Shown: positions 6,371 to 60,095 of the stretch, one piece after another
Position numbering within the stretch: position 1 is the stretch's first letter
How the letters are laid out: every line of letters starts with the position of its first letter
Assembly: GCA_964582785.1 (NCBI GenBank)
Contig: CAZOTT010000004.1
Location: 1 to 61,447, forward strand
Origin: an uncultured Acidobacteriota bacterium
GTDB taxonomy: Bacteria > Acidobacteriota > Polarisedimenticolia > J045
DNA length: 61,447 bases
Direction of reading: 5' to 3'
Program-made: the position numbers and the translations under genes
The notes under the pieces: generated by a model
Seen by the model: only the letters and a program-made list of their open reading frames with translations
The model's database searches: none
Told to the model about the DNA's origin: nothing

Positions 6371-6428
6371 CGGCGCCTCCGGCTCCGGCGCCGGTTCCCC
6401 GGGAACGCCCCCGCGCCCCGGGCTTCCC

Positions 6429-39576: not shown

Positions 39577-44005
<4,429 letters not shown>

Positions 44006-44009
<4 letters not shown>

Positions 44010-46006: not shown

Positions 46007-46474
46007 CTAGTGCTGGGCGCTCACCGTGACCTTCATCTTCTTCACCAGCGGGATCGCGTAGTTCAGGGTGATCCGCTGGATCCGGGCCTGCCCCGCCCGT
46101 CCCCGCCAGATCCGCTTCCGGAAGACGAACTCGTCGATGACCGCGTCGTTCCGGTCGAGGAGGGTGACCTGGACGTTCAGGGTCCAGGCCTGGTCGCCCG
46201 GGTTCTCGGCGAAGACGGTGTACCGGACCCAGGAGAACCGGGTCTCTCCCCCCGGCGGGGGCAGCAGCTCCCGGAGGAGCGGCTTCCGGTCCCGGACCAC
46301 CTGGATCGAGGTGACCCGCAGGTCCCCGACCTGGAGATCGAGGTTCACCGCCCGGTCGAGGGCGAACGGCACCGTCTTCGTGGCCACCAGGCCCGCCGCC
46401 GGGGCGGGCGCCGCCGCGGCGACCAGGCAGGCGAGAACAACCGGGACCAGGGTCGGGATGGTCGCGTGGCGCAT
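46007..46474 (-). CDS. small secreted hypothetical protein
   Basis: 155 aa from MRHATIPTLVPVVLACLVAAAAPAPA (signal). GGAGGAG lies upstream. Confidence 0.5.
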   Translation of the reverse strand: MRHATIPTLVPVVLACLVAAAAPAPAAGLVATKTVPFALDRAVNLDLQVGDLRVTSIQVVRDRKPLLRELLPPPGGETRFSWVRYTVFAENPGDQAWTLNVQVTLLDRNDAVIDEFVFRKRIWRGRAGQARIQRITLNYAIPLVKKMKVTVSAQH

Positions 46475-46626
46475 CGGGATCTCCTCCGTTCCGGACGGGC
46501 CCGGACGGGTCCGCGGCCGGCCGGAACCATGGTACCCCGCGGGCCGCGCCGGGCGAAACTGGACGCGCCCCGGGCGGATCCCTAGATTCGCCCCGAGGAA
46601 CGTGGCCCCGGCCATGGAGGAGACGC

Positions 46627-47499
46627 GTGAGCGAAGCGACGACGGACGCGACCCTCCACGAGCTGCGCCTGCTGCTCGAGGAGGAGATCGAGGCCGGGCG
46701 ACTTACGCTGCCGGTGATGCCCGACGTGGCCCTGCGGGCCCGGGAGGCCGCCGCCAGCGCGACGACCAGCGCGAAGGACCTGGCCCAGGTTCTCGAGGCC
46801 GACCCCGCCCTCGCCGCCCGCATCCTGAAGATGGCGAACTCGGCGATGTACGCCGGGCTCTCGGAAATCCGCGACCTCTCCCACGCGATCGTGCGCCTCG
46901 GGGCCGCGATGGTGGTCGCCGTGGTCGTCGGCGCCGCGGGCAAGGAGGTGTTCCGCACGAAAGAACCCTCGTTCCGGGCGCTCCTGCGGGAATCCTGGGA
47001 AGCCTCGGTCCACGCCGCCGCGGTCGCCCGCCTGCTCGCGGACCGGGCCGGCCTGCCCCGGGAGGAAGGACTCCTCGCCGGGCTCCTGCACGCCTCCGGG
47101 GACCCGATCCTCGTCCAGCTCATCGAGGACCTGGCGGCCCAGGGACGGATCGGCCGCCCCCCCGTCGAGACCGTCCGGGAGCTGCTCCGGCTGCTCGCCC
47201 CCCGGGCCGCGGTCCGGCTGCTTTCCAAGTGGGGCCTGCCCGAAGCGATCGTCCGGGCGATCGAGTACCAGCAGGCGCCGGGGGCGGCCCCGGAACCGTT
47301 CCGCAAGGCGGCCGCCCTCGTGACCCTGGCCGCCCTGACCGGGCACGGGTCGGTCGCCGGGGAGCCGGCGGACGAGCTCGCGCACACCCTCGGCTCTCAC
47401 CCGGCGGCCGGGCTGCTCCTTCTCGACGAGGAGGTGGCGCTGGATCTCCTCGAGCGGGCGCGGGAAGAGGGCCGCGAGATCGCCCGGGCGTTCACCTGA
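46627..47499 (+). CDS. HDOD-domain protein (copy 1)
   Basis: 290 aa. HDOD signature LPVMPDVALRAREAA..SAKDLAQVLEADPALAARILKMANSAMYAG..IRDLSHAIVRLG. The HD-equivalent position reads HASGDP. Confidence 0.8.
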   Translation: MSEATTDATLHELRLLLEEEIEAGRLTLPVMPDVALRAREAAASATTSAKDLAQVLEADPALAARILKMANSAMYAGLSEIRDLSHAIVRLGAAMVVAVVVGAAGKEVFRTKEPSFRALLRESWEASVHAAAVARLLADRAGLPREEGLLAGLLHASGDPILVQLIEDLAAQGRIGRPPVETVRELLRLLAPRAAVRLLSKWGLPEAIVRAIEYQQAPGAAPEPFRKAAALVTLAALTGHGSVAGEPADELAHTLGSHPAAGLLLLDEEVALDLLERAREEGREIARAFT

Positions 47500-47614
47500 T
47501 GGACGTTGGACGGGCGTTCAACTTTCGGGCCGACGGCCCTCAATGCGAGAAGGTTCCGGCCGATGAAGGATACCGGGGGGAACGGAAGGCGCCGGGCCCC
47601 GGGCAGGAGACCAG

Positions 47615-48184
47615 GATGCGAGACAGTCGAGGCTACACGCTGACCGAGATCATCGTGGCGGTGGCGGTGATCGCCATCCTCGCCGGCGCGATGACCCCCC
47701 TCATCTTCAAGCAGATCGAACGGTCCCGGGCCGCCCGCGCCCGCCAGGACCTGGACGCCGTCAAGGCCGCCTTCCTCCAGTACCGGGCCGACACCCAGTA
47801 CTGGCCCTGCAGCTGGGACGCCTCCACCAGCAACAACGTCAAGGGCTGGTTCACCGGCTACTACTGCCTCTACGAGGACGACCACCGCCACGGCTGGGAC
47901 GGCCCCTACCTCGACAGGTCCGGCGGCCAGGTCAACGGCCACTACCGCGCCGCCGTCTACCAGGACGGACAGTGGACCGGCGTCGTCGACCCCTGGGGAC
48001 GCCCCTACATGGTCTACGAGGCCAACACCTCCACCTCCGGCGCGGAGTACGGCGCCGTCGTCCTCTACTCCGTCGGCAAGAACGGCCGCGCCGATACCGC
48101 CGACGCCGACCTCCTCCAGGGGAACGCCTCCGGCGACGACGTCGTCGTCCTCGTCACCCGCCGCGCCGCGGACTGACGCCGCGG
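47615..48184 (+). repeat. 570-bp perfect direct repeat, copy A (covers pseudopilin ORF)
   Basis: Base-for-base identical to 49193..49762 by direct comparison. The six-frame peptides are identical in several frames. Confidence 0.95.
47616..48176 (+). CDS. GspG-like major pseudopilin (copy 1)
   Basis: 186 aa. Class III (prepilin) signal MRDSRG/YTLTEIIVAVAVIAILAG with Glu+5. GspG-like blocks LDAVKAAFLQYRADTQYWP and DPWGRPYMVY..SVGKNGRADT..DDV. Confidence 0.85.
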   Translation: MRDSRGYTLTEIIVAVAVIAILAGAMTPLIFKQIERSRAARARQDLDAVKAAFLQYRADTQYWPCSWDASTSNNVKGWFTGYYCLYEDDHRHGWDGPYLDRSGGQVNGHYRAAVYQDGQWTGVVDPWGRPYMVYEANTSTSGAEYGAVVLYSVGKNGRADTADADLLQGNASGDDVVVLVTRRAAD

Positions 48185-48207
48185 ACCCGGAGCACGGAGG
48201 GACCCGG

Positions 48208-49077
48208 ATGCCCAGCGGAATCGCGCACGTCGGCGAGCTGCTCCCGCGCCTGCGGGCGGCGATCGAGGCGGGGGAACTGACGATCCCGGTGATGCCGGAG
48301 ACGGCGATCCGGGTGCGGGAGGCGGCGGACGATCCGGCCACCACCGGCCGGGACATGGCCCGGATCCTCGAGGCGGACCCGGCCCTGGCCGCCCGGGTGC
48401 TGCGCCTCGCGAACTCGGCGCTCTACGCGGGACGGACCGAGATCAAGGACCTGACCCACGCGATCGTCCGCCTGGGGTCCTCCACGGTCGTGTCCCTGGT
48501 CGTCGGCGCCGCGGGCCAGGAGGTCTTCCGGTCCCAGGCGCCGGAAGCGGCGGCGATCCTCCACGACGCCTGGACCCGCTCCATCTACGCGGCGGCGATC
48601 GCCTCCCTTCTCTCGGACCGTTTCTACATTCCGCGGGAGGAGGGACTGATCGCCGGGCTGCTCCACGCCGCCGGCGAACCGATCCTCCTCCAGCTCGTCG
48701 AGGACCTGGTCGAGCGGGGAGACATCGAGCGACCGGATCCCGCGGACCTCAGGGACCTGCTCGCCGAGCTCGCGCCGGAAGCGGGAGTCCGCCTGCTGGA
48801 GGCGTGGGACATCCCCGGCCCGGTGGTCGCCGCGATCGCCCACCAGCGCGACCCGGCGGGGGCCGACGAGGTGGACCGCCACCGGGCGGCGATGGTCGCC
48901 CTGGCGGCCACCGGTGGCGCGGGGTTCCTGGCGGGGAAGCAGCCCCACGAGCTGGTGGGAGAACTGCTCGACCACCGGGGCAACGACATCCTCGGGCTCG
49001 ACCAGCTGACGATCGGGAGCCTCCTCGAAAAGGCGGTGGAGCACGGCCGGGAAATGGCCCGCGCGTTCTCGTCCTGA
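48208..49077 (+). CDS. HDOD-domain protein (copy 2, diverged paralog)
   Basis: 289 aa. IPVMPETAIRVREAA..GRDMARILEADPALAARVLRLANSALYAG..IKDLTHAIVRLG. Roughly half of its residues are identical to copy 1 by eye. Confidence 0.8.
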   Translation: MPSGIAHVGELLPRLRAAIEAGELTIPVMPETAIRVREAADDPATTGRDMARILEADPALAARVLRLANSALYAGRTEIKDLTHAIVRLGSSTVVSLVVGAAGQEVFRSQAPEAAAILHDAWTRSIYAAAIASLLSDRFYIPREEGLIAGLLHAAGEPILLQLVEDLVERGDIERPDPADLRDLLAELAPEAGVRLLEAWDIPGPVVAAIAHQRDPAGADEVDRHRAAMVALAATGGAGFLAGKQPHELVGELLDHRGNDILGLDQLTIGSLLEKAVEHGREMARAFSS

Positions 49078-49192
49078 CCCCTTCTCAAGAACCGGTACGG
49101 GCGTCCGATGAGGCGGGTGGAAGAGCCCGGGCGGGACCCGTGTCTCCCGGTGACCGGCGGAACGCCCGGGACGGACCCGGAGGAGAACGCGA

Positions 49193-49762
49193 GATGCGAG
49201 ACAGTCGAGGCTACACGCTGACCGAGATCATCGTGGCGGTGGCGGTGATCGCCATCCTCGCCGGCGCGATGACCCCCCTCATCTTCAAGCAGATCGAACG
49301 GTCCCGGGCCGCCCGCGCCCGCCAGGACCTGGACGCCGTCAAGGCCGCCTTCCTCCAGTACCGGGCCGACACCCAGTACTGGCCCTGCAGCTGGGACGCC
49401 TCCACCAGCAACAACGTCAAGGGCTGGTTCACCGGCTACTACTGCCTCTACGAGGACGACCACCGCCACGGCTGGGACGGCCCCTACCTCGACAGGTCCG
49501 GCGGCCAGGTCAACGGCCACTACCGCGCCGCCGTCTACCAGGACGGACAGTGGACCGGCGTCGTCGACCCCTGGGGACGCCCCTACATGGTCTACGAGGC
49601 CAACACCTCCACCTCCGGCGCGGAGTACGGCGCCGTCGTCCTCTACTCCGTCGGCAAGAACGGCCGCGCCGATACCGCCGACGCCGACCTCCTCCAGGGG
49701 AACGCCTCCGGCGACGACGTCGTCGTCCTCGTCACCCGCCGCGCCGCGGACTGACGCCGCGG
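49193..49762 (+). repeat. 570-bp perfect direct repeat, copy B
   Basis: Identical to 47615..48184, at an offset of 1578 bp. Confidence 0.95.
49194..49754 (+). CDS. GspG-like major pseudopilin (copy 2, identical)
   Basis: Same 186-aa product as 47616..48176. Confidence 0.85.
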   Translation: MRDSRGYTLTEIIVAVAVIAILAGAMTPLIFKQIERSRAARARQDLDAVKAAFLQYRADTQYWPCSWDASTSNNVKGWFTGYYCLYEDDHRHGWDGPYLDRSGGQVNGHYRAAVYQDGQWTGVVDPWGRPYMVYEANTSTSGAEYGAVVLYSVGKNGRADTADADLLQGNASGDDVVVLVTRRAAD

Positions 49763-49786
49763 GCGGACGCGCCGGGGAAGCGGCCG

Positions 49787-51505
49787 ATGGCGATCCTTCG
49801 CTTCGGGGAGCGGCTGGTCCGCGCCGGGGTGATCACCCCGGAACAGCTCGAGACGCTCCTCGCCGAGCAGAAGGGGACCGACCTCTCGATCGGGCAGCTC
49901 GCCGTCCGGCTCGGGTTCGCCACCCCCGAGCAGATCGCCGAGGTGCTCGCCGAGATGACCGGGCTGCGCTACGAGTCCCTCGCCCGGCGCCGCCCGGACC
50001 CGGAGCTGGCCGGCCTGGTGGACGAGGAGTTCGCCCGGGAGCGCCAGCTCGTCCCGATCGCCCGGGAAGGCGGCCGCCTCACGATCGCCCTCGCCAATCC
50101 CCTCGACGTGGTCTCCATCGACGCCGTCCGGGAACGCACCTCCCTCGACGTGGAGGCGGTCGTCTCTTCCGACCGGGAGATCCGGGCCTTCCAGGACGAG
50201 CTCTACGGCCGGCCGGACGGGACCGACAGGTTCGAGGGGCTGGTCGAGGCGGCCCGCCGGGCCCTGCTCGACCGGGACGAGCGGGGCGGACGGGAGCTGG
50301 GACCGGTCCGGGAGCTGGTGGACGAAATCCTCCGGGAAGCGGTCCGGAGGCGGGCGACCGACGTCCACGTCGAGCCCGAGGAACGGGCGGTCCGGGTCCG
50401 GTACCGGGTCGACGGGATGCTCGTCCCCGCCGTCACCCTGCCCCCGGACCTCCGGGCCACGGTGACCGCCCGGCTGAAGATCCTCGCGAACCTGGACATC
50501 TCCGAGTCCCGCCTGCCCCAGGACGGGCGGATCCGCACCGAGCTCGAGGGCCGCACGATCGACCTGCGGGTCTCGACGATCCCCTGCGTTCACGGGGAGA
50601 ACGTCGTCCTGCGCCTCCTCGACAAGACGAACGTCGTCAAGGGACTCGACCGCCTGGGCATGTCGCCGGGGGACCTCGAACGGTTCCGTGCCCTGCTGGC
50701 CACCCAGGCGGGGATGATCCTCGTGACCGGCCCCACCGGTTCCGGCAAGACGACGACCCTCTACTCCACCATCGCCTCGCTGGACGCCGAGCGGTTCAAG
50801 ATCGCCACCCTCGAGGACCCGGTCGAGTACGAGCTGCCCCTGGTGCGCCAGTCCCAGGTCCACGAGAAGGCGGGATTCACCTTCGCCGCCGGCCTGCGGG
50901 CCCTGCTGCGCCAGGACCCGGACATCATCTTCGTCGGGGAGATGCGCGACGCGGAAACCGCCTCCATCGCGGTCCGGGCGGCTCTCACCGGCCACCTGGT
51001 GTTCAGCACCCTCCACACCACGTCCGCCCTCGCCACCCTGGCCCGCCTCGACCAGATGGGCATTCCCCAGGACCTCGTGATCACGTCGGTCCGCGGGATC
51101 CTCGCCCAGCGCCTGGTGCGGGTCGTCTGCCAGGCGTGCGCGGAGCCGGACGACCCCGACCCGCTGGTCCTGCGGCGCCTGGGCCTCGGGCCGGGCGACC
51201 TGGAGGGCGCGTCCCTGCGCCGGGGCGCCGGCTGCGCCCGCTGCCGCGGAACCGGTTTCCGGGGCCGGACCGGCCTCTACGAGCTGGTCGTGATGACCCC
51301 CGACCTGGCGGACGCCTTCGCGGCCGGCGCCCCCCCCGGTGAGCTGGCCCGCCTCGCGGCGGCGGCCGGCACCCGCTTCCTCCGGGACGACGGCCTCGCC
51401 AAGGCCGGGGCCGGGATCACGACCCTCGAGGAGGTTCTCCGCGCCACGGCCGACGCCCCGGTCCGGGCCGGGGCGCCGGCCGCCCGGGAGACGGCCCATG
51501 CCTGA
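49787..51505 (+). CDS. gspE: type II secretion / type IV pilus assembly ATPase (GspE/PilB family) with MshEN-like N-terminus
   Basis: 572 aa. Walker A GPTGSGKTTT, Asp box, Walker B/His box [12 protein letters not shown], and tetracysteine CQAC..CARC. Confidence 0.93.
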   Translation: MAILRFGERLVRAGVITPEQLETLLAEQKGTDLSIGQLAVRLGFATPEQIAEVLAEMTGLRYESLARRRPDPELAGLVDEEFARERQLVPIAREGGRLTIALANPLDVVSIDAVRERTSLDVEAVVSSDREIRAFQDELYGRPDGTDRFEGLVEAARRALLDRDERGGRELGPVRELVDEILREAVRRRATDVHVEPEERAVRVRYRVDGMLVPAVTLPPDLRATVTARLKILANLDISESRLPQDGRIRTELEGRTIDLRVSTIPCVHGENVVLRLLDKTNVVKGLDRLGMSPGDLERFRALLATQAGMILVTGPTGSGKTTTLYSTIASLDAERFKIATLEDPVEYELPLVRQSQVHEKAGFTFAAGLRALLRQDPDIIFVGEMRDAETASIAVRAALTGHLVFSTLHTTSALATLARLDQMGIPQDLVITSVRGILAQRLVRVVCQACAEPDDPDPLVLRRLGLGPGDLEGASLRRGAGCARCRGTGFRGRTGLYELVVMTPDLADAFAAGAPPGELARLAAAAGTRFLRDDGLAKAGAGITTLEEVLRATADAPVRAGAPAARETAHA

Positions 51506-52706
51506 GTTCGCCTGGCAGGCGCGGTCCCCCGCGGGGGACGTCGTCCGGGGGACCGGGGAGGCGCCCGACCCGGTGGCCCTCGCCCGGTCTCTCCGGGAAC
51601 GGGGCCTCGTCCTGACCCGGGCGCGGTCGACGCACCGGCGGGCCCGCCGGGGACCCTCCCGCCGCACCCGTCTTCGCCGCAAGGAACTGATCCTGCTGAC
51701 CCACCAGCTGGCGGATGCCCTGGGCGCGGGGATTCCGCTGGTCGAAACCCTCGCCGAGTTCGCGCGGACCTGGCCGCACCCCCGCGTCCGGGAAGTGCTC
51801 GACCGGGTGCGGGGAGAGGTCGAAGCGGGCGGCGGATTCGCGGCAGCCCTCGCCCGCTGGCCACGGGCGTTCCCCCCGGCCTGGGTGGAGGCGGTGCGGG
51901 CCGCGGAGGACTCGGGCCGGCTCGACCGGGTGTTCGCCGAGCTGGCCGAGGACCTGGAGTGGCAGGACGAGATGGCGTCCCGGGTGACGTCCGCCCTGCT
52001 CTACCCGGCGATCCTGCTGGTGGCGGTGGCCGGGGTGGCCACCCTCTTCGTGACCGTCCTCTTCCCCAAGCTCCGGCCCCTGTTCGAGGCGACGGGAATC
52101 GAGCTGCCCCTCGTCACCCGGATCCTCCTCGGGATCTCCGACCTGGCCGTCCGCTGGTGGACCCTGCTGCCCCTGGTCCCCGCGCTTCTCGTGCCGGGCA
52201 CGTCCCTCGCCCTGCGGACCGGGCCCGGGCGTCTCGCCTGGCACCGCCTCCTGCTGGCCCTGCCGGGGATCCGGCGGGTGACCCGCCACCTGCTGGCGGC
52301 CCGCTTCGCCCGCACCGCGGCGACCCTGCTCGACGCGGGGACCTCGATGCCCCGTGCCCTGCACGTGGGGGGAGCCGGCGTGGACAACATCCCGTTCACC
52401 CGGGCGATCGAGCGGGCCCGGGAAGACGTCGTCGCCGGCAGCAGCCTGGCCGACGCGCTGGAACGGACGTCGTTCTTCGGCCCCCTGGACGTCCGCATGG
52501 TCTCGGTGGGAGAGCGCTCGGGAACCCTGGTCCGGGCCCTCGGCAACCTGGCCCGCCTCCACGAGCGGCAGGCACGGCGGGCGATCCAGGCGGCCGTCAC
52601 CCTGCTCGAACCGATCCTGCTGGTGCTGATGGCGGCGATCGTCCTCGGCCTCGCCCTTTCCGTCTTCCTGCCGATCTACCAGTCGATCGACGCGATCGGG
52701 AGGTGA
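51498..52706 (+). CDS. gspF: GspF/PilC-family inner-membrane platform protein
   Basis: 402 aa. Two T2SSF repeats (LADALGAGIPLVETL..; LLDAGTSMPRAL..) and three TM segments. 8-nt overlap with gspE. Confidence 0.9.
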   Translation: MPEFAWQARSPAGDVVRGTGEAPDPVALARSLRERGLVLTRARSTHRRARRGPSRRTRLRRKELILLTHQLADALGAGIPLVETLAEFARTWPHPRVREVLDRVRGEVEAGGGFAAALARWPRAFPPAWVEAVRAAEDSGRLDRVFAELAEDLEWQDEMASRVTSALLYPAILLVAVAGVATLFVTVLFPKLRPLFEATGIELPLVTRILLGISDLAVRWWTLLPLVPALLVPGTSLALRTGPGRLAWHRLLLALPGIRRVTRHLLAARFARTAATLLDAGTSMPRALHVGGAGVDNIPFTRAIERAREDVVAGSSLADALERTSFFGPLDVRMVSVGERSGTLVRALGNLARLHERQARRAIQAAVTLLEPILLVLMAAIVLGLALSVFLPIYQSIDAIGR

Positions 52707-52711
52707 GACCG

Positions 52712-53272
52712 ATGGGAAGCGCGGGAGGAACCCGGGGATACACGCTCAGCGAGATCGTCGTCACGCTGGCGATCGTGACGATCCTCGCCGGCACCCTCGC
52801 TCCCCTCGTGACCCACCAGGTGGCGAAGGCCCGGCGCGCCCGGGCCCTGCGGGACATCGCGGCGATCGCCCAGGCGATCCAGGCGTTCCGGCAGGACGTC
52901 CGGTCGTTTCCCGACAGGAGCGGCGGATCGCCCGGCGTGCTCGGCTACCTGCTGACCGCCGGCGCGGCACCCGGGGGGCTCGGATCGTGGCAGGGCCCGG
53001 CGGGCCGGACCGCCCGGCACCTGGTGGACAACGATCCTCCCGGCGCGGACTACCCCGAGAGCGGCTCGACCGCCTGGCGGGGCCCCTACCTGCCGAACGA
53101 CCCGGTGGACCCCTGGGGTCACGCCTACGTGGTCTCGGTCGCGGGGATGCGGGGGGACGCGGGGGTCCGCGGATGGATCCTTTCCGCGGGGCCCGACGGA
53201 GTCCTGCAGACGGACGACGGGGACGACGCGATCCCGGCCGGGAGCGACGACGTCGGCTGGAGGCTGCGGTGA
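52712..53272 (+). CDS. GspG-like pseudopilin
   Basis: 186 aa. Prepilin signal GTRG/YTLSEIVVTLAIVTILAG. W.GPYL and DPWGHAYVV..SAGPDG motifs. Confidence 0.8.
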   Translation: MGSAGGTRGYTLSEIVVTLAIVTILAGTLAPLVTHQVAKARRARALRDIAAIAQAIQAFRQDVRSFPDRSGGSPGVLGYLLTAGAAPGGLGSWQGPAGRTARHLVDNDPPGADYPESGSTAWRGPYLPNDPVDPWGHAYVVSVAGMRGDAGVRGWILSAGPDGVLQTDDGDDAIPAGSDDVGWRLR

Positions 53273-54171
53273 CCGGCCGGGAGCGGGGTGCGAGTCTCCT
53301 CGAGACGATGGCCTCCGTGGCGATCCTGGTGGTGCTCGCGACGGCGGCCGTTCCGGGCGTCCTCCGGCTGCTCGAGCAGCGCGAGGAGGAGGCGTGCCGG
53401 GCCCGCCTGGACGCCATCGCGGACGGCCTGCGGTCCTTCTGGCGGGATCACGGGAGGTTCCCCACGGCGACGGAAGGGCTCGGCGCCCTCCTCGCGGACC
53501 CGGGAACCGGCCGCTGGCGCGGGCCCTACCTGCGGGCGCCCGCGCCGGGCCTCGACCCCCTGGCCGATCCCCGTGGCCATCGTTTCTCCTACTCGCCGTC
53601 GGGGGACGGCGCCCGGGTGGTCCCTCCCGGGTTCCCCGCCCTCGCCCGGACCGTGCTCCCCGGGGGCGCGGCGTCCGGGCTCGTGGCGCGCGCCGGGGCG
53701 GAACTCGCGCTCGTCGCCGCCGCCGCCGAGCGGTGGCGAGAGACCCGGGGCAGCTGGCCGGGAAGGATCGACGACCTGGCGTCCCTCCTCGGCGCCGACC
53801 TCCTGCGGGATCCCTGGGGACGTCCCTACCGGCTCGACACGTCCCACCTGGTTCCCTGGTCGGTGGGGCCGGACGGCCGCCCGGGGACGGCCGACGACGT
53901 CTACCCGGTCGGGTGGGATCCGGACGCGGTTCCCGCCGCCGAGCCCCCCCCGGACGGGGGAACGGAGGGCGGCGGCGTCACGCCGGCGGACGAGCTGGAC
54001 GCCGCGATCGCCGCCGAACTGTCCGCCTGGCGCCGGGAACTCCGCGCGTACCTCTCCTCCCTGGCGGACCCGGGAACCACCTGGGAGGAGCGCTACGACC
54101 ACCTGGGGCGCGCCGTCTACCACGCCCTGCGCTGGCAGGGCCTGCGGCGTCGCCGGGCGATGGAGGGTTGA
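53269..54171 (+). CDS. pseudopilin paralog A (extended GspG-like)
   Basis: 300 aa. RERG/ASLLETMASVAILVVLA (Glu+5). RDHGRFPT..EGL.ALLADPGTGRWRGPYL and DPWGRPYRL..GPDGRPGTADDV. GTGA overlap upstream. Confidence 0.7.
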   Translation: MTGRERGASLLETMASVAILVVLATAAVPGVLRLLEQREEEACRARLDAIADGLRSFWRDHGRFPTATEGLGALLADPGTGRWRGPYLRAPAPGLDPLADPRGHRFSYSPSGDGARVVPPGFPALARTVLPGGAASGLVARAGAELALVAAAAERWRETRGSWPGRIDDLASLLGADLLRDPWGRPYRLDTSHLVPWSVGPDGRPGTADDVYPVGWDPDAVPAAEPPPDGGTEGGGVTPADELDAAIAAELSAWRRELRAYLSSLADPGTTWEERYDHLGRAVYHALRWQGLRRRRAMEG

Positions 54172-54174
54172 CCG

Positions 54175-55062
54175 GTGGCCGCCCGGGACCAGCGGGGACT
54201 CTCCCTGCTCGAGGCGATGGTCTTCGTCGCCGCGGCGGCAATGCTGGCCGCGGCGGCGATGCCCCTCGCCCTGCGGGTGCTGGAGCTGCGCGAGGAACGC
54301 GCCCTGGACCGGAGGATGGAGGTCCTGGCGCAGGGGCTCCTGGCGTTCTACCGGGACCACGGGCGGCTGCCGACGGAGGACGAGGGACTGGCGGCGCTCC
54401 TCGCGGACCCGGGAACCGGCCGCTGGCGCGGTCCCTACCTGCCGCTGGCCGACCGGGACCTGGTCCTGCGGGGCCCCCGGGGATCGGCGATCACTTGGCA
54501 TCGCGCCGGCCGGGCCGGCGTGCTGGGGAGCGCGGCGTTTCCGGGCGTGACCCGGACCGTGAACCCGGCGCCGGTGGACCTTGCCTTCCGCCGCATCGCG
54601 ATCCGGGAGCTGCGGGCGCTGAAGAGGGCGGCCCTCGCCTACCGGGCCGAGAACGGCGGCCTGCCGGGTTCCGTGGCGGACCTGGTTCCCGCGCGCCTGG
54701 GCGGAGATTTCGCCCTCGACCCCTGGGGCCGGCCCTACGCCATCGACCCGGACGCGGGGGAGATCCGCTCGGCGGGGCCGGACGGGTCAGCGGGAACCGC
54801 CGACGACGTGGTCCTCCCCCTCGGGGTGACGGGGGCGGCGACGGGCTTGTCCGGCATCCCGGCTCCGCCCGCCTTCACGCCGACGAGCCCGGGGGACAGG
54901 GCCCGGGCCGAGGAGGAGCAACGGGCCCTGTTCCGGCGGTACCGGCGGGAAGCGGCGGCCGCCCGGGACGGAACACCGGCGGGCGCCGAGCGGTCCGCCA
55001 CGCTGCGCGGTCTCGCGCTCTACCACCTGTACCGCGCGATCGGGATCCGGAGGGACCGATGA
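54175..55062 (+). CDS. pseudopilin paralog B
   Basis: 295 aa. DQRG/LSLLEAMVFVAAAAML. Same internal motif set as paralog A. Confidence 0.7.
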   Translation: MAARDQRGLSLLEAMVFVAAAAMLAAAAMPLALRVLELREERALDRRMEVLAQGLLAFYRDHGRLPTEDEGLAALLADPGTGRWRGPYLPLADRDLVLRGPRGSAITWHRAGRAGVLGSAAFPGVTRTVNPAPVDLAFRRIAIRELRALKRAALAYRAENGGLPGSVADLVPARLGGDFALDPWGRPYAIDPDAGEIRSAGPDGSAGTADDVVLPLGVTGAATGLSGIPAPPAFTPTSPGDRARAEEEQRALFRRYRREAAAARDGTPAGAERSATLRGLALYHLYRAIGIRRDR

Positions 55063-55721
55063 AACGGGGAAGCCGCCGCCGGGACGGTTTCACCCTGGCG
55101 GAGGCGGTCGCCTCCCTGGCGATCGCCGCGATCCTCGCCGCGGCGGCGGTGCCGGCGGTGCTGCGGCTGATCGAGATCTCCGAGGAACGGACGACCCGGG
55201 CGCGTCTCGAGCGGGTCGAGGAGGGCCTGCTCGCCTTCTACCGGGACCACGGCCGGTTCCCGACCGACGACGAGGGACTCGAGGCGCTGCTCGTCGACCC
55301 GGGAACCGGCTCCTGGCACGGGCCGTACCTGCCCCCGGGAGGAACGGGGGAAAACCCGCTGGAGGATGGCCGGGGCCATCCCCTCGTCTACGCGGGGGGC
55401 CGGACGAGCTGCCGGGTCGTCCCCCCCGGGTTCCCCGACCTGGCCGTCGACGGCAGCGCCGCGCCGGTGGTCCTCGAGTGGGTGGCCCGGGCCCGGGAGG
55501 AGATCGCCCGGTTGAACGATGCGGCCGAGGACTGGCGGGACGTGCACGGCAGCTATCCCGCGTCCGTGGACGACCTGGTCCCCGGCATCCTCGGGGCGGA
55601 CTACGGAACCGACCCGTGGGGCCACCCGTACCGGGTCGATGCCGGGCGGGAAACGTTCTATTCCGCGGGACCGGACGGGACACCGGGGACGGCCGACGAC
55701 GTTCATGCCCCGGGCCTCTGA
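55059..55721 (+). CDS. pseudopilin paralog C
   Basis: 220 aa. RRDG/FTLAEAVASLAIAAILA. Same motif set. ATGA overlap upstream. Confidence 0.75.
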   Translation: MKRGSRRRDGFTLAEAVASLAIAAILAAAAVPAVLRLIEISEERTTRARLERVEEGLLAFYRDHGRFPTDDEGLEALLVDPGTGSWHGPYLPPGGTGENPLEDGRGHPLVYAGGRTSCRVVPPGFPDLAVDGSAAPVVLEWVARAREEIARLNDAAEDWRDVHGSYPASVDDLVPGILGADYGTDPWGHPYRVDAGRETFYSAGPDGTPGTADDVHAPGL

Positions 55722-55748
55722 GCCGATAAGGGAAGAGGAGGGAAAAGG

Positions 55749-57233
55749 GTGTCCCGGAAACGAGCCAGCATCGGGATCGAGATCGGGCCCGAGGCGGTCC
55801 GGGCCGTGGCGCTGGTCGGAAGGAAGCCTCCATTCCGGCTCGCCGGCGCGGAGGACCTGGCGATCGGGGGCCTCGACGAGGTCCCGGCCGCCCTGGCCGA
55901 GGTGCTCGGCAGGCTGGGGGCCAAGGGACCCGCCCGGCTGGTCCTCCTCGGCCTGCACGGCAACCACCTCCGGCTGCGGTTCCCCCCGATGCGCCGGGGC
56001 GAGCTCGCGGAGGCGCTGGACCTGCACCTGGCGCAGGTCCTCGAGGAACCGCCCGCGGGCCGGCTGATCGGCCGGCGGGTGCGCCGCGAGGACGACGGCG
56101 CCCTGGTGATCGACGTGCTGGCGCTGCCCCGGGACCCGGTGGAGACCTGGTGTGCCCAGCTCGCCGCCTCGGGCTTCCCCGTGACCGGCCTCAGAACCCC
56201 CGCGGCCGCCGCGCTGGCGGACGATCCCCGCGCCCCCGGGGAGCGGCGGGGCGGTCTCCTGTGGGTGGACGCGGGCGGAACGAGAACCGTCCTCACGTTT
56301 CTCAAGGGGGACGAGATCGTCCTGGTGCGGGAGATCCCCCGGAAGGAACCGGAGGAGGACGGCCAGCTGGCCCGGATCGAACGGCGCCTGGCCGACTTCC
56401 AGGAGATCGAGCGGTCGATCCTCTACTACCGCCAGCACCACGACCGCGGGGGGGTGAGGACGCTGGTCCTCTGCGGTGATCTCGAGGAGGTGCAGCCCCT
56501 CCACGACCAGATCGCTCCGCCCCTGCGGGAACTGGAGGTCGAGATCCGGCTGGTGGACGCCTGGGCACCGGTCGGTGCCGGGCGGGATGCCCTGTCGCCG
56601 GGGGCCGGGCCGCGGCTCGCCCTCGCCGCCCGCACGGCGGCCTGGGACGGCGGGTCCGGCCTCGGCATCGTGCCCCCCGCCACCGTGGCGTCCCGGCGCC
56701 GGACCCTGCGCCACCGGGCCCTGGCGGGGGCGGCCGCCGCCGCAGTGGCCCTGGCCGGGGGGCTCGCCTGGTGGGAAGCGTCCGCGACGGCCCACCTCCG
56801 GGAACGGCTCGCCCTCGAGCGGGCCCGGCTGGCCTCCCTGCCCGCGCCCCCTACCGGTTCCGACAGGCCCGTGGTGCAGGTCCACCCTCCCCGGGCTGCC
56901 GACTGGTCCGGGCTCCTGTCGGAGATCGGGGTCCTCGCCCGGCCCGGGATCGACTACGAGGAGCTCGAGCTCGTGATCACCGCGGACGGCCCGGTCGTCG
57001 GCCTCGTCGGAACCGCCGGCGGGAAGGACACGCGGGCGACGGGCCTGCTCCTGGCCGGCCTGCACGAGGGGGTCCTGGCCAGCGCATACTCCCGCGGCAT
57101 CCCCCGCATGGCCGCGGAGACCGACCCCGGGGCCCGCCGCGGGGAACGGGTCCGCTACGCCCTCGAGGGAGCCGTGGACGATCGGCCCGCCCGGCAGGCA
57201 GAAGCGGCGGGCCGGGAGCGGGGGCGCCGATGA
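55749..57233 (+). CDS. PilM-like (actin-fold) assembly protein fused to a PilN-like TM/periplasmic segment (GspL-analogous)
   Basis: 494 aa. N-terminal IGIEIGPEAVRAVAL.. and LWVDAGGTRTVLTF (PilM/FtsA-like phosphate motifs). TM helix ALAGAAAAAVALAGGLAWW, then a coiled segment. Confidence 0.65.
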   Translation: MSRKRASIGIEIGPEAVRAVALVGRKPPFRLAGAEDLAIGGLDEVPAALAEVLGRLGAKGPARLVLLGLHGNHLRLRFPPMRRGELAEALDLHLAQVLEEPPAGRLIGRRVRREDDGALVIDVLALPRDPVETWCAQLAASGFPVTGLRTPAAAALADDPRAPGERRGGLLWVDAGGTRTVLTFLKGDEIVLVREIPRKEPEEDGQLARIERRLADFQEIERSILYYRQHHDRGGVRTLVLCGDLEEVQPLHDQIAPPLRELEVEIRLVDAWAPVGAGRDALSPGAGPRLALAARTAAWDGGSGLGIVPPATVASRRRTLRHRALAGAAAAAVALAGGLAWWEASATAHLRERLALERARLASLPAPPTGSDRPVVQVHPPRAADWSGLLSEIGVLARPGIDYEELELVITADGPVVGLVGTAGGKDTRATGLLLAGLHEGVLASAYSRGIPRMAAETDPGARRGERVRYALEGAVDDRPARQAEAAGRERGRR

Positions 57234-57958: not shown

Positions 57959-58578
57959 GCCGCGGCAAGGTGTTCACCCTGGTCGGGCTCGCGGTCGCGG
58001 TGCTCGTGTTCGACGCGTGGTTCTTCCTCGGCAACGGGGAGGCTGCCGCCCCGATCGAGGCCGGGACGGAGCCGGGCTCCCCGCGCGGCGGGGAGTTCCA
58101 CCTCGCGGACCTTCTTCCCGGGGCGGAGCCCGCCCCCACCCCCCGGCCGGCGGCGGTGCCCTGGCACGATCCGGCCACGTGGCCCCTGCCGGAACGGCGT
58201 CCGCCCCGGAGGGGACACCCCCGGCCCGGGCTGATGGTCCGGCCCCCGGCACCGGCGGGGGAGGACGGCGCGCGGGCATCCCTTCCGCGGCGGGTTCCCG
58301 TGATTCTCTGGCGGCCCGGGGGAGCCCTCGCCCTGGTCGGGAACCGCCTGGTCCGGGAAGGGGACCGGGTGGGGCCCTGGCTGGTGCGGGAGATCCGCCC
58401 CGATCGCGTCCGCCTCGTCCGGGCGGACGGAGGCGGAAAGCCCCTCGTCCTCCCCCTCGGCGGGCCCCCGCGCCCGCAACCCGCCGCCGCCTCCCGGGCC
58501 GGGGCGGCGGCGCCGGCCCCGGCGCCCTCCCCCGACCCCGCACCACCGGCGGCGCCGGCCCCGGAGGAGGTTCCCTGA
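57955..58578 (+). CDS. GspB/PilP-like small assembly protein (tentative)
   Basis: 207 aa. TM VFTLVGLAVAVLVFDAWFFL, a Pro-rich linker and a C-terminal block ALVGNRLVREGDRVGPWLVREIRPDRVRLV. Confidence 0.45.
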   Translation: MSRGKVFTLVGLAVAVLVFDAWFFLGNGEAAAPIEAGTEPGSPRGGEFHLADLLPGAEPAPTPRPAAVPWHDPATWPLPERRPPRRGHPRPGLMVRPPAPAGEDGARASLPRRVPVILWRPGGALALVGNRLVREGDRVGPWLVREIRPDRVRLVRADGGGKPLVLPLGGPPRPQPAAASRAGAAAPAPAPSPDPAPPAAPAPEEVP

Positions 58579-60095
58579 TGGCTTCCCGGAAGAGAACGCT
58601 TTCCCTCCTGGCGGCGGTCCTCGGCCTGCTCCTGGGCGCCTGCGCCTCGGGCACCGCCCGGGGGCCGGCCCGGCCCCTCGCCCGGGTGCCGTCCGGGATC
58701 CCCGCCCCCGCGGTGCGGGTCGAGGCTCCCGCCCTGCCCTCCCTCGAGGAAACCGTCCTCGAACCCGGAAACGACGGCCTGGAGCGCCTGGACGAGATCT
58801 TCGCCGGTGCCCCGCCGGTGACCCTCAACGTCGAGGATGCCCCGCTGGAGGAGGTTCTCCGGGCCCTCTCCGAGGCGTCCGGCCGGAGCCTTCTCCTGGC
58901 TCCCGGCGTCGAAGCCCGGGTCTCGGCGTCGTTCCACGAGACACCGATCCCGCGGATCCTCCGTGCGCTCCTGGGGGACCGGGGGCTCGGCGTGCGGGCC
59001 GAGGGGAACCTGGTGCGTATCGAGCCCGCTCCCCTGTCCACGGTCGCCTTCCACCTGTCGCTGCCGGACATGGCGGCGGCCGGCAGCGAGAAGGCGGCGG
59101 CCGGCGGTCCCAGCCCGGCCACCTGGAAGACGATCGGGGACGCGGTGAAGCTGGTCCTCTCGTCCCGGGGCGAGGTCCACCTGGACCCCGCCGGGTCCCT
59201 CCTCATCGTCCGGGACGTGCCGGCCCGGATCGAGCGGGTGCGGAAGGTTCTCGAGGAAACGGTCGCCCCCCGCCGGCGGCAGGTGACGATCGAGGCCTCG
59301 ATCCTCGAGGTCGCCCTGGACGACGGCCTGTCCTACGGCATCGACTGGTCCGCCCCCGACCTGCTGGCCACGATCTCCGGCAGCCGGGTGACCGGACGGA
59401 TCGCGACGAACCTGGTCCAGGACCGGGGAGTGGTGACGTTCGCGATCGACTCCCACAAGCTTTCCGCGCTGTTCCGTGCGCTCCGGGACCGGGGCCAGCT
59501 CGAGGTGCTGTCCGCCCCCCGGCTGACCACCCTCAACCGGGTCCCGGCCCGGATCGCGATCACCGAGGAGATCCCCTACTACACCTCCGACTTCAGCGCC
59601 GTCGGCCAGGAACCGATCCAGTCGATCCAGGTCGAGTTCCGGGAGGCGGGGGTCGTCCTCGAGGTGACGCCGATCGTCGCCTCCACGGGGGAGGTCACCC
59701 TGCTCCTCCACCCGAAGGTGACGGAGCTGACCGGCTGGACCCCGGCCCTGCCGAACCTGCCGCCGAACCCGATCCTGGACGTGCGCGAGGTGACGACCAC
59801 GGTCCGCGCCGTGCACGGCCAGTCCGTGGTCCTCGCCGGCCTGATCCGCAACCGCTTCCAGGAGCAGCGCCAGGAGGTTCCCGGGCTGGGACGGGCGCCG
59901 GGGGTCGGGGCGGCGTTCCGCAACCTTTCCCAGTCCGGGGAGCGCACCGAGCTGGTGATCGTGATCACCCCGGTGGTCGCCGACGCGGAATGGCAACGGC
60001 GGGCGCTGAAGAAGGGGCTCGACGACATCGAGGAGCTCCGCCGCCCGTTCACCCCCGGGCCCGTGCGCGGCATCCTCCGGGGGCGCGTGCCCTGA
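58578..60095 (+). CDS. secretin (GspD/PilQ family), lipoprotein form
   Basis: 505 aa. Lipobox LLLGAC. An N-domain LNVEDAPLEEVLRALSEASG, and a secretin core VLSAPRLTTLNRVPARI..GVVLEVTPIV..VVLAGLI..VPGLG..LVIVITP. Confidence 0.88.
   Translation: MASRKRTLSLLAAVLGLLLGACASGTARGPARPLARVPSGIPAPAVRVEAPALPSLEETVLEPGNDGLERLDEIFAGAPPVTLNVEDAPLEEVLRALSEASGRSLLLAPGVEARVSASFHETPIPRILRALLGDRGLGVRAEGNLVRIEPAPLSTVAFHLSLPDMAAAGSEKAAAGGPSPATWKTIGDAVKLVLSSRGEVHLDPAGSLLIVRDVPARIERVRKVLEETVAPRRRQVTIEASILEVALDDGLSYGIDWSAPDLLATISGSRVTGRIATNLVQDRGVVTFAIDSHKLSALFRALRDRGQLEVLSAPRLTTLNRVPARIAITEEIPYYTSDFSAVGQEPIQSIQVEFREAGVVLEVTPIVASTGEVTLLLHPKVTELTGWTPALPNLPPNPILDVREVTTTVRAVHGQSVVLAGLIRNRFQEQRQEVPGLGRAPGVGAAFRNLSQSGERTELVIVITPVVADAEWQRRALKKGLDDIEELRRPFTPGPVRGILRGRVP

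What the first reader, a model, noticed from the sequence alone, without database searches (positions are those of the whole stretch)
47615..49762. ORF-precise 570-bp perfect duplication of the pilin gene while the partner HDOD genes have diverged
47615..48184 and 49193..49762 are identical base for base. Identity begins 1 nt before the ATG and ends 8 nt after the TGA. The 116-nt leaders upstream of the two copies show no similarity. The HDOD genes that precede each copy share only about half of their residues. The cassette duplication is therefore old, but the pilin ORFs are being homogenised (gene conversion or concerted evolution) or were replaced very recently. Assembly collapse or duplication is the alternative.
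Basis: seen in the sequence. Interest (0 to 1): 0.62.

Follow-up and report, generated by a model that had tools for sequence, protein, structure and literature searches.

The report
Twin pseudopilin genes kept identical
Two neighbouring copies of a secretion-pilus subunit gene in a hydrothermal-vent Acidobacteriota genome are really present and base-for-base identical because they keep copying each other (gene conversion), while their partner genes drifted apart; a clean but ordinary example of a well-known process.

Summary
The 570-nt perfect repeat (47615-48184 = 49193-49762) is real and has the stated boundaries. Independent assemblies and contigs from three other sequencing runs show the same order: pilin end, HDOD2, leader 2, pilin start. 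The repeat node has roughly twice the flank depth in the deepest run.

The gene encodes a 186-aa GspG-like major pseudopilin. It heads a T2SS-like cluster of GspE, GspF, minor pseudopilins and a secretin.

Three related lineages with full data (two more are partial) carry the same HDOD-pilin-HDOD-pilin layout. More distant relatives, including the isolate Mor1, have one cassette. HDOD genes group by position: orthologs are 82-88% identical and paralogs 62-65%. Pilins group by genome: paralogs are 100%, 93.5% and 80.6% identical, against 77-88% between genomes.

One correction: the leaders are not unrelated. Both keep a conserved sigma-28-like promoter motif, CTCAAK-N14-KCCGATGA.

One caveat: only graph-assembled contigs were available. 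Exact 100% identity is therefore partly imposed by assembly, and a few hidden differences cannot be excluded.

This is a new member of a known kind, of moderate interest.

The parts
46627..47499 (+). HDOD1, a 290-aa stand-alone HDOD-domain protein; first gene of cassette 1
   Evidence: Pfam PF08668 E=1.3e-41. Position-specific orthologs in L001 and L003 are 84-85% nt identical.
47500..47615 (+). Leader 1 (116 nt). Carries a sigma-28-like promoter motif CTCAAT-N14-GCCGATGA at 47539-47566 and SD AGGAG at 47605-47609. Predicted TSS is near 47574.
   Evidence: Motif search. Conserved in orthologous leaders and in single-cassette outgroups. Consensus taken from PMC12784957. The TSS is inferred.
47615..48184 (+). 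Repeat copy 1 (570 nt), containing pilin ORF 47616-48176. The product is a 186-aa GspG-like major pseudopilin with prepilin motif RG|YTLTE.
   Evidence: Exact identity. Pfam N_methyl and T2SSG. AlphaFold model pLDDT 87.8, with the top 10 Foldseek PDB hits all GspG/PulG/EpsG.
48177..48207 (+). 31-nt spacer between the pilin-1 stop and the HDOD2 start. Its first 8 nt belong to the repeat. No terminator found, so pilin 1 and HDOD2 are probably co-transcribed.
48208..49077 (+). HDOD2, a 289-aa HDOD-domain protein; the diverged paralog of HDOD1
   Evidence: Pfam PF08668 E=2.3e-39. 55% aa identity to HDOD1. dN between paralogs 0.43 against 0.07-0.08 between orthologs.
49078..49193 (+). Leader 2 (116 nt). 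Carries a sigma-28-like promoter motif CTCAAG-N14-TCCGATGA at 49084-49111 and SD GGAGGAG at 49179-49185. Predicted TSS is near 49119.
49193..49762 (+). Repeat copy 2 (570 nt), containing pilin ORF 49194-49754, identical to copy 1
   Evidence: Independent contigs L024, L025 and L042 are 100% identical here.
49787..51505 (+). GspE/PilB-type assembly ATPase (MshEN + T2SSE domains)
   Evidence: Pfam PF00437 E=1e-125 and PF05157.
51498..52706 (+). GspF/PilC-type platform protein
   Evidence: Pfam PF00482.
52730..55721 (+). Four further GspG-domain pseudopilins: 52730-53272, 53269-54171, 54175-55062 and 55059-55721. The last three are a diverged tandem triplet.
   Evidence: Pfam T2SSG. About 70% nt identity over the first 232 nt.
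55702..55729 (+). Third sigma-28-like motif, TTCATG-N14-GCCGATAA, upstream of the 494-aa gene at 55749-57233
   Evidence: Conserved in L001 and L003, and matched by CTCAAG...ACCGATGA at the same place in L002.
58578..60095 (+). Secretin (GspD/PilQ family), closing the cluster
   Evidence: Pfam PF00263 E=3.6e-38.

Best explanation
An ancestral three-part cassette (HDOD gene, sigma-28-like promoter/leader, major pseudopilin gene) sat at the head of a T2SS-like cluster. It was duplicated in tandem before the present lineages split. Since then the HDOD genes and leaders have diverged beyond the reach of homologous recombination. The two pseudopilin ORFs have repeatedly overwritten each other by homologous recombination between the direct repeats 1.58 kb apart. 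The likely mechanism is RecA-type non-reciprocal gene conversion, possibly with some unequal sister-chromatid exchange.

In the window's lineage the latest event covered the whole ORF, leaving 570 identical bases. The tract looks ORF-precise because homology ends at the ORF edges. The strongly conserved N-terminal helix region supplies the long identical blocks that recombination needs. The 3' end, which is kept similar between the two copies within a genome, does the same. The flanks offer none.

The net effect is two separately promoted genes making one and the same filament subunit for a single machine.

Shown: the identity, the tandem two-copy structure, and the contrast between position-wise HDOD phylogeny and genome-wise pilin phylogeny. 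Inferred: the recombination mechanism, the promoter function, and any selective benefit (dosage, or compatibility with one assembly machine).
For: 1. Exact 570-nt identity with sharp edges.
2. Two-copy topology in independent data. L024 (MEGAHIT k141) equals window 48044-49762, L042 equals 48107-49318 and L025 equals 48855-49762, all at 100%.
3. Logan contigs. In runs X2 and X3 a 570-nt contig exactly equal to the repeat has two in-edges and two out-edges. In the shallower X1 the repeat is joined to leader 2 in one 908-nt contig and only the two out-edges are seen. In X3 the repeat depth is 98.6, against 33.3 + 54.2 in and 38.5 + 38.7 out.
4. The same double cassette occurs in L001, L003/4/5 and L026, with partial evidence in L022 and L023. 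A single cassette occurs in L002, L013, L014 (isolate Mor1) and L015.
5. HDOD orthologs by position are 82-88% nt identical and paralogs 62-65%. Pilin paralogs are 100, 93.5 and 80.6% identical, against 77-88% between genomes.
6. NJ bootstrap trees show pilins grouping by genome (100, 100) and HDODs grouping by position (100, 83).
7. dN of HDOD paralogs is 0.41-0.44, against 0, 0.055 and 0.128 for pilin paralogs. This is despite pilin evolving faster between lineages in the window-L003 and L001-L003 comparisons (dN 0.17-0.19 against 0.05-0.08 for HDOD); between the window and L001 the two are about equal (0.06-0.07). Synonymous sites are also identical in the window.
8. In all three lineages similarity starts at the start codon and stops at the stop codon.
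9. The longest exact block between HDOD paralogs is 14-20 nt. Even the most diverged pilin pair (L003) keeps blocks of 42, 27 and 26 nt.
10. A run test for a conversion tract in L003 gives P=0.004.
Against: Only contigs could be laid, not raw or long reads, and contigs drop rare variants. Graph assemblers emit one collapsed node for both copies, so a few real differences could be hidden. Depth in the shallow runs X1 and X2 is only 1.0-1.7 times the flank. The run test is not significant in L001 (P=0.19). The L003 pair is no more similar than cross-lineage pairs, so conversion after the split is not shown for that lineage beyond a short tract. Synonymous divergence is saturated (GC3 about 95%), so events cannot be dated. 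Direction of the last event (copy 1 to 2 or 2 to 1) could not be resolved. Non-reciprocal conversion cannot be told apart from cycles of unequal crossing-over.
Confidence: 0.8

Rival explanations
1. Assembly artefact: the genome has one HDOD-pilin cassette, or a different arrangement, and the assembler duplicated or mis-joined it.
For: The source is a metagenome assembly. A 570-nt exact repeat is longer than usual k-mers, and both copies would be printed from one graph node. Depth of the repeat in X2 (9.97) is not clearly twice the flanks (5.7-10.3).
Against: Contigs from other assemblies and runs contain end-of-repeat, HDOD2, leader 2, start-of-repeat in one piece (L024, L042, X2 record 13). 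Each repeat end has exactly two continuations. HDOD2 depth equals flank depth in X3, and the repeat is about 2.4-2.9 times the flank. The same two-cassette layout, with non-identical copies that assemble without ambiguity, occurs in L001, L026 and L003-5.
Confidence: 0.03
2. The copies are real and nearly identical but not strictly identical. A few differences were erased by bubble-popping or consensus in graph assembly.
For: All available data are contigs. MEGAHIT-type and Logan contig simplification merge near-identical paths. The tool notes that contigs drop rare variants.
Against: In two runs (X2 and X3) the repeat came out as a single unbroken 570-nt contig, and in X1 it lies without differences inside a longer contig. 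No alternative letters were listed, at depths up to about 99. Several differences would probably have left at least one unresolved bubble. This reading would not change the interpretation of very recent conversion.
Confidence: 0.12
3. Homogenisation comes from repeated unequal crossing-over (expansion to three copies and contraction, or deletion and re-duplication) rather than non-reciprocal conversion.
For: Tandem direct repeats of 570 nt are good substrates. Contig L010 joins HDOD1 and leader 1 to a pilin that runs straight into the GspE upstream region, as a one-cassette deletion product would. The repeat depth in X3 is somewhat above twice the flank.
Against: L010's right-hand part is 99% identical to another lineage (L022), whose flanks are only about 82% like L001. 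L010 also comes from a co-assembly, so it is more likely chimeric. HDOD2 depth equals flank depth, so there is no sign of copy-number variants. HDOD1 and HDOD2 have kept their positions in all lineages.
Confidence: 0.1
4. Both ORFs were recently replaced by an allele imported from another strain (a gene-specific sweep by inter-strain recombination), not copied from each other.
For: Co-occurring strains in X3 and X4 differ from the window by 0.1-1.2% in flanking contigs. Locally they differ by 5 SNPs in the 48 nt before copy 1 and 8 SNPs in 47 nt of leader 2. No differences are listed inside the repeat.
Against: Two independent imports with the same end points are less parsimonious than one import or mutation followed by one conversion. 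SNP density between strains is mosaic anyway, for example 0 in 2.9 kb at 58.5-61.4 kb. Contigs can hide variants.
Confidence: 0.06

Closest known systems
Concerted evolution of duplicated bacterial genes by RecA-dependent gene conversion (tufA/tufB; rRNA operons)
   Same: Paralogs stay nearly identical within a genome while diverging between genomes. Identity includes synonymous sites. The tract is limited to the homologous segment (background: PMC5485169 and PMC8022953, listed).
   Different: Here the copies are tandem, 1.58 kb apart, and each is part of a two-gene cassette whose other gene (HDOD) has escaped homogenisation. The gene is a fast-evolving filament subunit, not a slow-evolving translation gene.
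Long-lasting recurrent concerted evolution in prokaryotes (Wang & Chen 2018, PMC6053082)
   Same: The same phylogenetic signature of synteny-defined positions against genome-wise clustering. Most of their 26 genes encode subunits of complexes, and they include tandem copies of fla. From my own knowledge, fla encodes the archaeal flagellin, a type IV pilin-like filament subunit.
   Different: No pilin or pseudopilin appears in that paper's main text (0 occurrences of 'pilin' or 'pilus'). The time span here is short, among closely related Acidobacteriota lineages, not hundreds of millions of years.
Neisseria pilE/pilS pilin antigenic variation
   Same: Gene conversion between pilin-family sequences in one genome.
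   Different: In Neisseria, silent, truncated, promoterless donors diversify one expressed gene. Here two complete, separately promoted genes are made alike. This is homogenisation, not diversification.
T2SS major pseudopilin GspG/PulG/EpsG
   Same: Prepilin N-terminus, T2SSG domain, DPWGxPY motif, predicted fold, and location next to GspE/GspF with a secretin in the cluster.
   Different: It is 186 aa against about 140, with an extra Cys65-Cys84 loop region that is the most variable part. It is present twice, and each copy is preceded by an HDOD gene.
Sigma-28 (FliA) promoters, e.g. P. aeruginosa fliC: TCTAAAG-N14-GCCGATAA
   Same: The motif before each pilin copy has the same two boxes and the same 14-nt spacing (CTCAAK-N14-KCCGATGA).
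   Different: It lies in front of pseudopilin genes, not flagellar genes. No FliA gene or transcription start has been shown for this organism.

Membership tests
Interlocus gene conversion / concerted evolution | Paralogs within a genome are more alike than orthologs between genomes | tested here: met
   Window 100% and L001 93.5% within the genome, against 86.7-88.0% between them. NJ bootstrap 100 for each genome pair. The L003 pair at 80.6% only equals cross-lineage values.
Interlocus gene conversion / concerted evolution | The duplication predates the species split, shown by a linked marker with positional orthology | tested here: met
   HDOD1 and HDOD2 form separate clades that each contain all lineages (bootstrap 100 and 83). 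Orthologs are 82-88% identical and paralogs 62-65%.
Interlocus gene conversion / concerted evolution | Similarity extends to synonymous sites, so it is not just protein-level constraint | tested here: met
   Window: 0 synonymous differences in about 134 sites. L001 paralogs have pS 0.098, against 0.30-0.33 between the window and L001.
Interlocus gene conversion / concerted evolution | Statistically supported tracts (mosaic pattern) | tested here: inconclusive
   Permutation run test gives P=0.004 for L003 and P=0.19 for L001.
Interlocus gene conversion / concerted evolution | Non-reciprocal transfer, as opposed to unequal crossing-over | not testable with these tools
   Needs long-read population data or an experimental system.
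T2SS major pseudopilin (GspG) / type IV pilin-like proteins | Class III signal peptide: short basic leader ending in G, then a hydrophobic helix with Glu at +5 | tested here: met
   MRDSRG|YTLTEIIVAVAVIAILAG. PF07963 scores 29.9 bits, above the 21.2 cut-off.
T2SS major pseudopilin (GspG) / type IV pilin-like proteins | GspG globular domain | tested here: met
   PF08334 scores 29.7 bits, above the 21 cut-off. The model has pLDDT 87.8. The Foldseek top 10 PDB hits are all GspG/PulG/EpsG, with probability 0.89-1.0 and target-normalised TM 0.52-0.64, although E-values are only 0.01-0.15.
T2SS major pseudopilin (GspG) / type IV pilin-like proteins | Encoded with an assembly ATPase, platform protein, minor pseudopilins and a secretin | tested here: met
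   GspE, GspF, four T2SSG-domain genes and a secretin lie at 49787-60095.
T2SS major pseudopilin (GspG) / type IV pilin-like proteins | Prepilin peptidase present | not tested
   No Peptidase_A24 hit among the window genes scanned. The rest of the genome was not available.
pilE/pilS-type antigenic variation | Silent, truncated, promoterless donor copies feeding one expression locus | tested here: not met
   Both copies are full-length ORFs, each with its own SD and conserved promoter-like motif.
Sigma-28 (FliA)-type promoter | -35 CTAAAG-like and -10 GCCGATAA-like boxes 14 nt apart | tested here: met
   CTCAAT-N14-GCCGATGA at 47539-47566 and CTCAAG-N14-TCCGATGA at 49084-49111. Two hits against 0.01 expected. 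Consensus from PMC12784957. The pattern was derived from these sequences, so the statistic is partly circular.
Sigma-28 (FliA)-type promoter | Conserved at orthologous positions | tested here: met
   Present in the pilin leaders of 13 of the related loci, including the single-cassette outgroups L012, L013 and L014 (Mor1). A third copy lies before the 494-aa gene.
Sigma-28 (FliA)-type promoter | A FliA-type sigma factor in the genome, and a transcription start about 8 nt after the -10 box | not tested
   No sigma factor gene in the window. No RNA runs hold the locus.
Assembly artefact (false duplication) | Independent data show only one cassette, or the repeat at single-copy depth | tested here: not met
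   L024, L042 and the X2 and X3 contigs link repeat end, HDOD2 and repeat start. In X3 the repeat is at 98.6 against flanks of 33-39.

The most novel reading that the evidence does not exclude
The pseudopilin ORF behaves as an exchangeable cassette. One allele is installed at both separately promoted expression sites. It is also shared unchanged by co-occurring strains whose immediate flanks differ, including SNP clusters within 2-50 nt of the repeat edges. This would mean gene-specific sweeps by inter-strain recombination followed by intragenomic conversion. The driver would be selection on the exposed variable Cys-Cys loop, for example from phage or predation. The 570-nt direct repeats could additionally allow loss and regain of HDOD2 as a copy-number switch.
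Probability: 0.12. Interest if true: 0.6.

Novelty: new member of a known kind. Interest (0 to 1): 0.35.

Why it matters
This is a clean natural case of one duplicated two-gene cassette splitting into two fates. One part, HDOD and the leader, escapes homogenisation. The other part, the filament subunit, stays under concerted evolution, with the boundary at the ORF edges in at least three lineages. That makes it a useful example for how sequence conservation sets conversion-tract limits. It also shows how filament-subunit paralogs can mislead phylogeny and metagenome assembly: the repeat breaks several public assemblies at exactly this point. In addition it flags a conserved HDOD, sigma-28-like promoter and pseudopilin module in Acidobacteriota T2SS-like clusters, whose regulation is unstudied. 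It does not reveal a new mechanism.

Tried and rejected
- **Sigma-54 promoter in the leaders.** A GAF-AAA+ enhancer-binding protein lies upstream at 42516-44009. No GG-N10-GC match is conserved across orthologs (reading). Rejected.
- **Sigma-70 promoters or intrinsic terminators at 46300-50100.** None found.
- **Riboswitch or known RNA in the leaders.** Rfam E-value scan of 44-54 kb gave only a chance snoRNA hit at E=0.67.
- **Hairpins at the stop codons or in the 5'UTRs.** Folding z-scores ran from -1.9 to +1.2, mostly near 0, and nothing was conserved.
- **Direction of the last conversion, from the 8 nt after the stop and from flank comparisons.** The signals contradict each other. 'TGAC' is typical of copy-1 flanks, while 'CCGCGG' is typical of copy-2 flanks. 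Left unresolved.
- **Expression evidence.** No RNA runs hold the locus.
- **Literature link between HDOD and pilins.** No paper holds both 'HDOD' and 'pilin'. One paper, on SadB, describes an HDOD protein as an adaptor.
- **L010 as evidence for a single-cassette strain.** Its right part is 99% identical to a different lineage (L022) and it comes from a co-assembly. It is treated as probably chimeric.
- **dS-based dating.** Abandoned because synonymous sites are saturated at GC3 of about 95%.
Full report
**Observation**

The window has 74% G+C. At offset 1578 the longest exact run is 47615-48184 = 49193-49762, 570 nt. It begins one base before the ATG and ends eight bases after the TGA. A whole-window scan finds no other long repeat except the diverged HDOD pair and a diverged pseudopilin triplet.

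The ORF (47616-48176 and 49194-49754) encodes a 186-aa protein with a prepilin N-terminus (MRDSRG|YTLTE...). It has Pfam N_methyl and T2SSG domains. An AlphaFold model has pLDDT 87.8, and its ten best PDB matches are all T2SS major pseudopilins GspG, PulG or EpsG. By sequence, PDB pilins match only the N-terminal helix.

Each copy is preceded by a stand-alone HDOD gene (46627-47499 and 48208-49077). These are 55% identical as proteins.

Downstream lie:
- GspE (49787-51505)
- GspF (51498-52706)
- four more T2SSG-domain pseudopilins (52730-55721)
- three unknown genes
- a secretin (58578-60095)

Together these form a complete T2SS-like / type IV filament cluster. The rest of the window is ordinary chromosome with no mobile-element genes. 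It encodes peptidases, oxidative-stress genes and a sigma-54 activator.

**Real or artefact**

The locus is found in five public runs, two of them labelled hydrothermal-vent metagenomes. Only assembled contigs, not raw reads, could be laid.

In runs X2 and X3 there is a contig of exactly 570 nt equal to the repeat. Exactly two contigs enter it, from leader 1 and from leader 2. Exactly two leave it, into HDOD2 and into GspE. All overlap it by k-1 = 30 nt. In X2 one contig runs 48155-49222, which is end of repeat, HDOD2, leader 2 and start of repeat. In the shallower X1 the repeat is joined to leader 2 in one 908-nt contig, and only the two out-edges are seen.

In the deepest run, X3, depths are:

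| Element | Depth |
|---|---|
| Repeat | 98.6 |
| In-edges | 33.3 + 54.2 |
| Out-edges | 38.5 + 38.7 |
| HDOD2 | 38.5 |

In the shallow runs the ratio of repeat to flank is only 1.0-1.7.

Three independently assembled contigs are 100% identical to the window and tell the same story:
- L024 equals 48044-49762. It starts one 141-mer before the end of copy 1 and ends at the end of copy 2.
- L042 equals 48107-49318.
- L025 equals 48855-49762.

A single-cassette artefact is therefore very unlikely.

One caveat remains. In a graph assembly both copies are printed from one node, and simplification can erase a few differences. '100.0%' should be read as 'identical, or within a very few bases'.

**Comparative evidence**

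Homologues of the pilin are few and come from Acidobacteriota MAGs.

The same HDOD-pilin-HDOD-pilin-GspE layout is present in three further places:
- L001, confirmed by an independent JGI contig, L026
- L003, L004 and L005
- partially in L022 and L023

More distant relatives have one HDOD-pilin cassette in front of GspE-GspF. These are L002, L013, L015 and the isolate genome 'Acidobacteria bacterium Mor1' (L014).

Nucleotide identities:

| Comparison | HDOD | Pilin |
|---|---|---|
| Between genomes (for HDOD: orthologs by position) | 82-88% | 77-88%, with no positional signal |
| Paralogs within a genome | 62-65% in every genome | 100% (window), 93.5% (L001), 80.6% (L003) |

In L023 the last 99 nt of the two pilin copies match at 92 positions.

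Bootstrapped NJ trees place HDOD1 and HDOD2 in separate clades that each contain all lineages (100 and 83). The pilin copies of the window and of L001 each pair with each other at 100%.

Non-synonymous divergence of the HDOD paralogs is 0.41-0.44, against 0.05-0.08 for HDOD orthologs. Pilin paralogs differ by 0, 0.055 and 0.128. This is despite pilin evolving faster than HDOD in the comparisons with L003 (dN 0.17-0.19 against 0.05-0.08). Between the window and L001 the two are about equal (0.06-0.07). Synonymous sites are identical in the window and little changed in L001.

This is the classical signature of concerted evolution. The cassette duplication is old, and the pilin ORFs have been homogenised repeatedly, most recently and completely in the window's lineage.

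**Why the boundary sits at the ORF edges**

In all three fully sequenced lineages, paralog similarity starts at or within a few codons of the ATG. It stops at the stop codon.

The first 120 nt encode the N-terminal helix and are the most conserved part between lineages, at 85-91% among the double-cassette lineages. The 3' end stays similar between copies within a genome in the window and L001, but less so in L003.

Even the most diverged pair (L003) retains identical blocks of 42, 27 and 26 nt. The HDOD paralogs share at most 14-20 identical bases in a row, and the leaders cannot be aligned.

From general knowledge, RecA-type recombination needs roughly 25 or more identical bases. I infer that conversion can still nucleate and resolve inside the pilin ORF but not outside it. 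That makes the homogenised segment look ORF-precise without any special mechanism.

A permutation run test supports a short tract in L003 (P=0.004) but is not significant in L001 (P=0.19). In L001 the differences cluster in codons 66-92, the loop between Cys65 and Cys84.

**The leaders**

The leaders are not unrelated. Both carry CTCAAK-N14-(G/T)CCGATGA, at 47539-47566 and 49084-49111. These are the only two matches in the window, against 0.01 expected.

The motif is conserved in front of the pilin in 13 of the related loci, including three single-cassette outgroups, while the surrounding bases vary. A related box (TTCATG-N14-GCCGATAA) sits before the 494-aa gene at 55749 and is conserved in L001, L003 and L002.

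Boxes and spacing match the sigma-28 (FliA) promoter as described for P. aeruginosa fliC, TCTAAAG-N14-GCCGATAA (PMC12784957). I therefore read each cassette as HDOD gene, own promoter, pseudopilin gene, so the two identical ORFs are probably transcribed independently.

This is a sequence-level inference. No sigma factor gene lies in the window, and no RNA data exist for the locus. No sigma-70 promoter, terminator, Rfam family or significant RNA fold was found.

**Function**

HDOD domains are poorly understood. The closest solved structures are uncharacterised structural-genomics entries. One paper describes an HDOD protein, SadB, as a proteolysis adaptor. No paper holds both 'HDOD' and 'pilin'.

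The most likely reading is one filament subunit supplied from two separately controlled genes. Conversion keeps both compatible with the single assembly machine, or simply doubles dosage. This step is inferred.

**Comparison with known cases**

The process is the same as for tufA/tufB, rRNA operons and the 26 genes catalogued by Wang & Chen (PMC6053082). That catalogue includes tandem fla copies, which from my own knowledge encode archaeal flagellins, but its main text does not mention pilins.

It is unlike Neisseria pilE/pilS, because both copies here are complete and promoted and the outcome is sameness, not variation.

**Verdict**

This is a new member of a known kind, of moderate interest.

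Noticed in passing
window 47539-47566, 49084-49111, 55702-55729; same positions in L001-L014: A conserved sigma-28/FliA-like bipartite motif (CTCAAK-N14-KCCGATGA, and TTCATG-N14-GCCGATAA) lies before both pilin copies and before the 494-aa gene of the cluster. This suggests the T2SS-like cluster is driven by a FliA-type sigma factor.
   Followed up: partly
window 53269-54171, 54175-55062, 55059-55721: Three tandem T2SSG-domain pseudopilin paralogs are about 70% nt identical over their first 232 nt. This is a diverged triplication with no sign of homogenisation, in contrast to the identical major pseudopilin pair.
   Followed up: partly
L010 (CAYQTA010000016.1) 6013-6615 vs L001 and L022: The contig matches L001 with 1 mismatch in 6 kb up to about 70 nt into pilin 1. 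It then becomes 99% identical to the pilin and GspE-upstream sequence of another lineage (L022), skipping HDOD2. It is either a chimeric co-assembly or a real recombinant or single-cassette variant.
   Followed up: partly
window 47567-47613, 48191, 49078-49124 (runs X3, X4): Strain SNPs cluster right next to the repeat: 5 in the 48 nt before copy 1, one 7 nt after it, and 8 in the first 47 nt of leader 2 in a second allele. None is listed inside either copy. The promoter boxes themselves are untouched.
   Followed up: partly
L007/L010, L008/L009, L024, L042 (contig ends): Several public short-read assemblies and MAGs break exactly at the pilin genes. The (near-)repeat is a recurrent assembly breakpoint in this clade.
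   Followed up: yes
window 42516-44009: A GAF-AAA+-HTH sigma-54 enhancer-binding protein lies 2.6 kb upstream of the cluster and is syntenic in L001. No sigma-54 promoter was found in the pilin leaders, so its target is unknown.
   Followed up: partly
window 17744-45957: The neighbourhood has many predicted secreted or processing peptidases: a sortilin/MAM-like protein, a tricorn protease, an M36 fungalysin and two M28 peptidases. It also has oxidative-stress genes: KatG, Dps, desulfoferrodoxin and a rubrerythrin-like gene. The peptidases are candidate cargo for the adjacent T2SS-like system.
   Followed up: no
pilin residues 65-92 (window 47808-47891 and 49386-49469): The loop between the two cysteines (C65, C84) is the most variable part of the pilin, both between lineages and between the L001 paralogs. 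It is predicted to lie between the N-terminal helix and the beta-sheet.
   Followed up: partly
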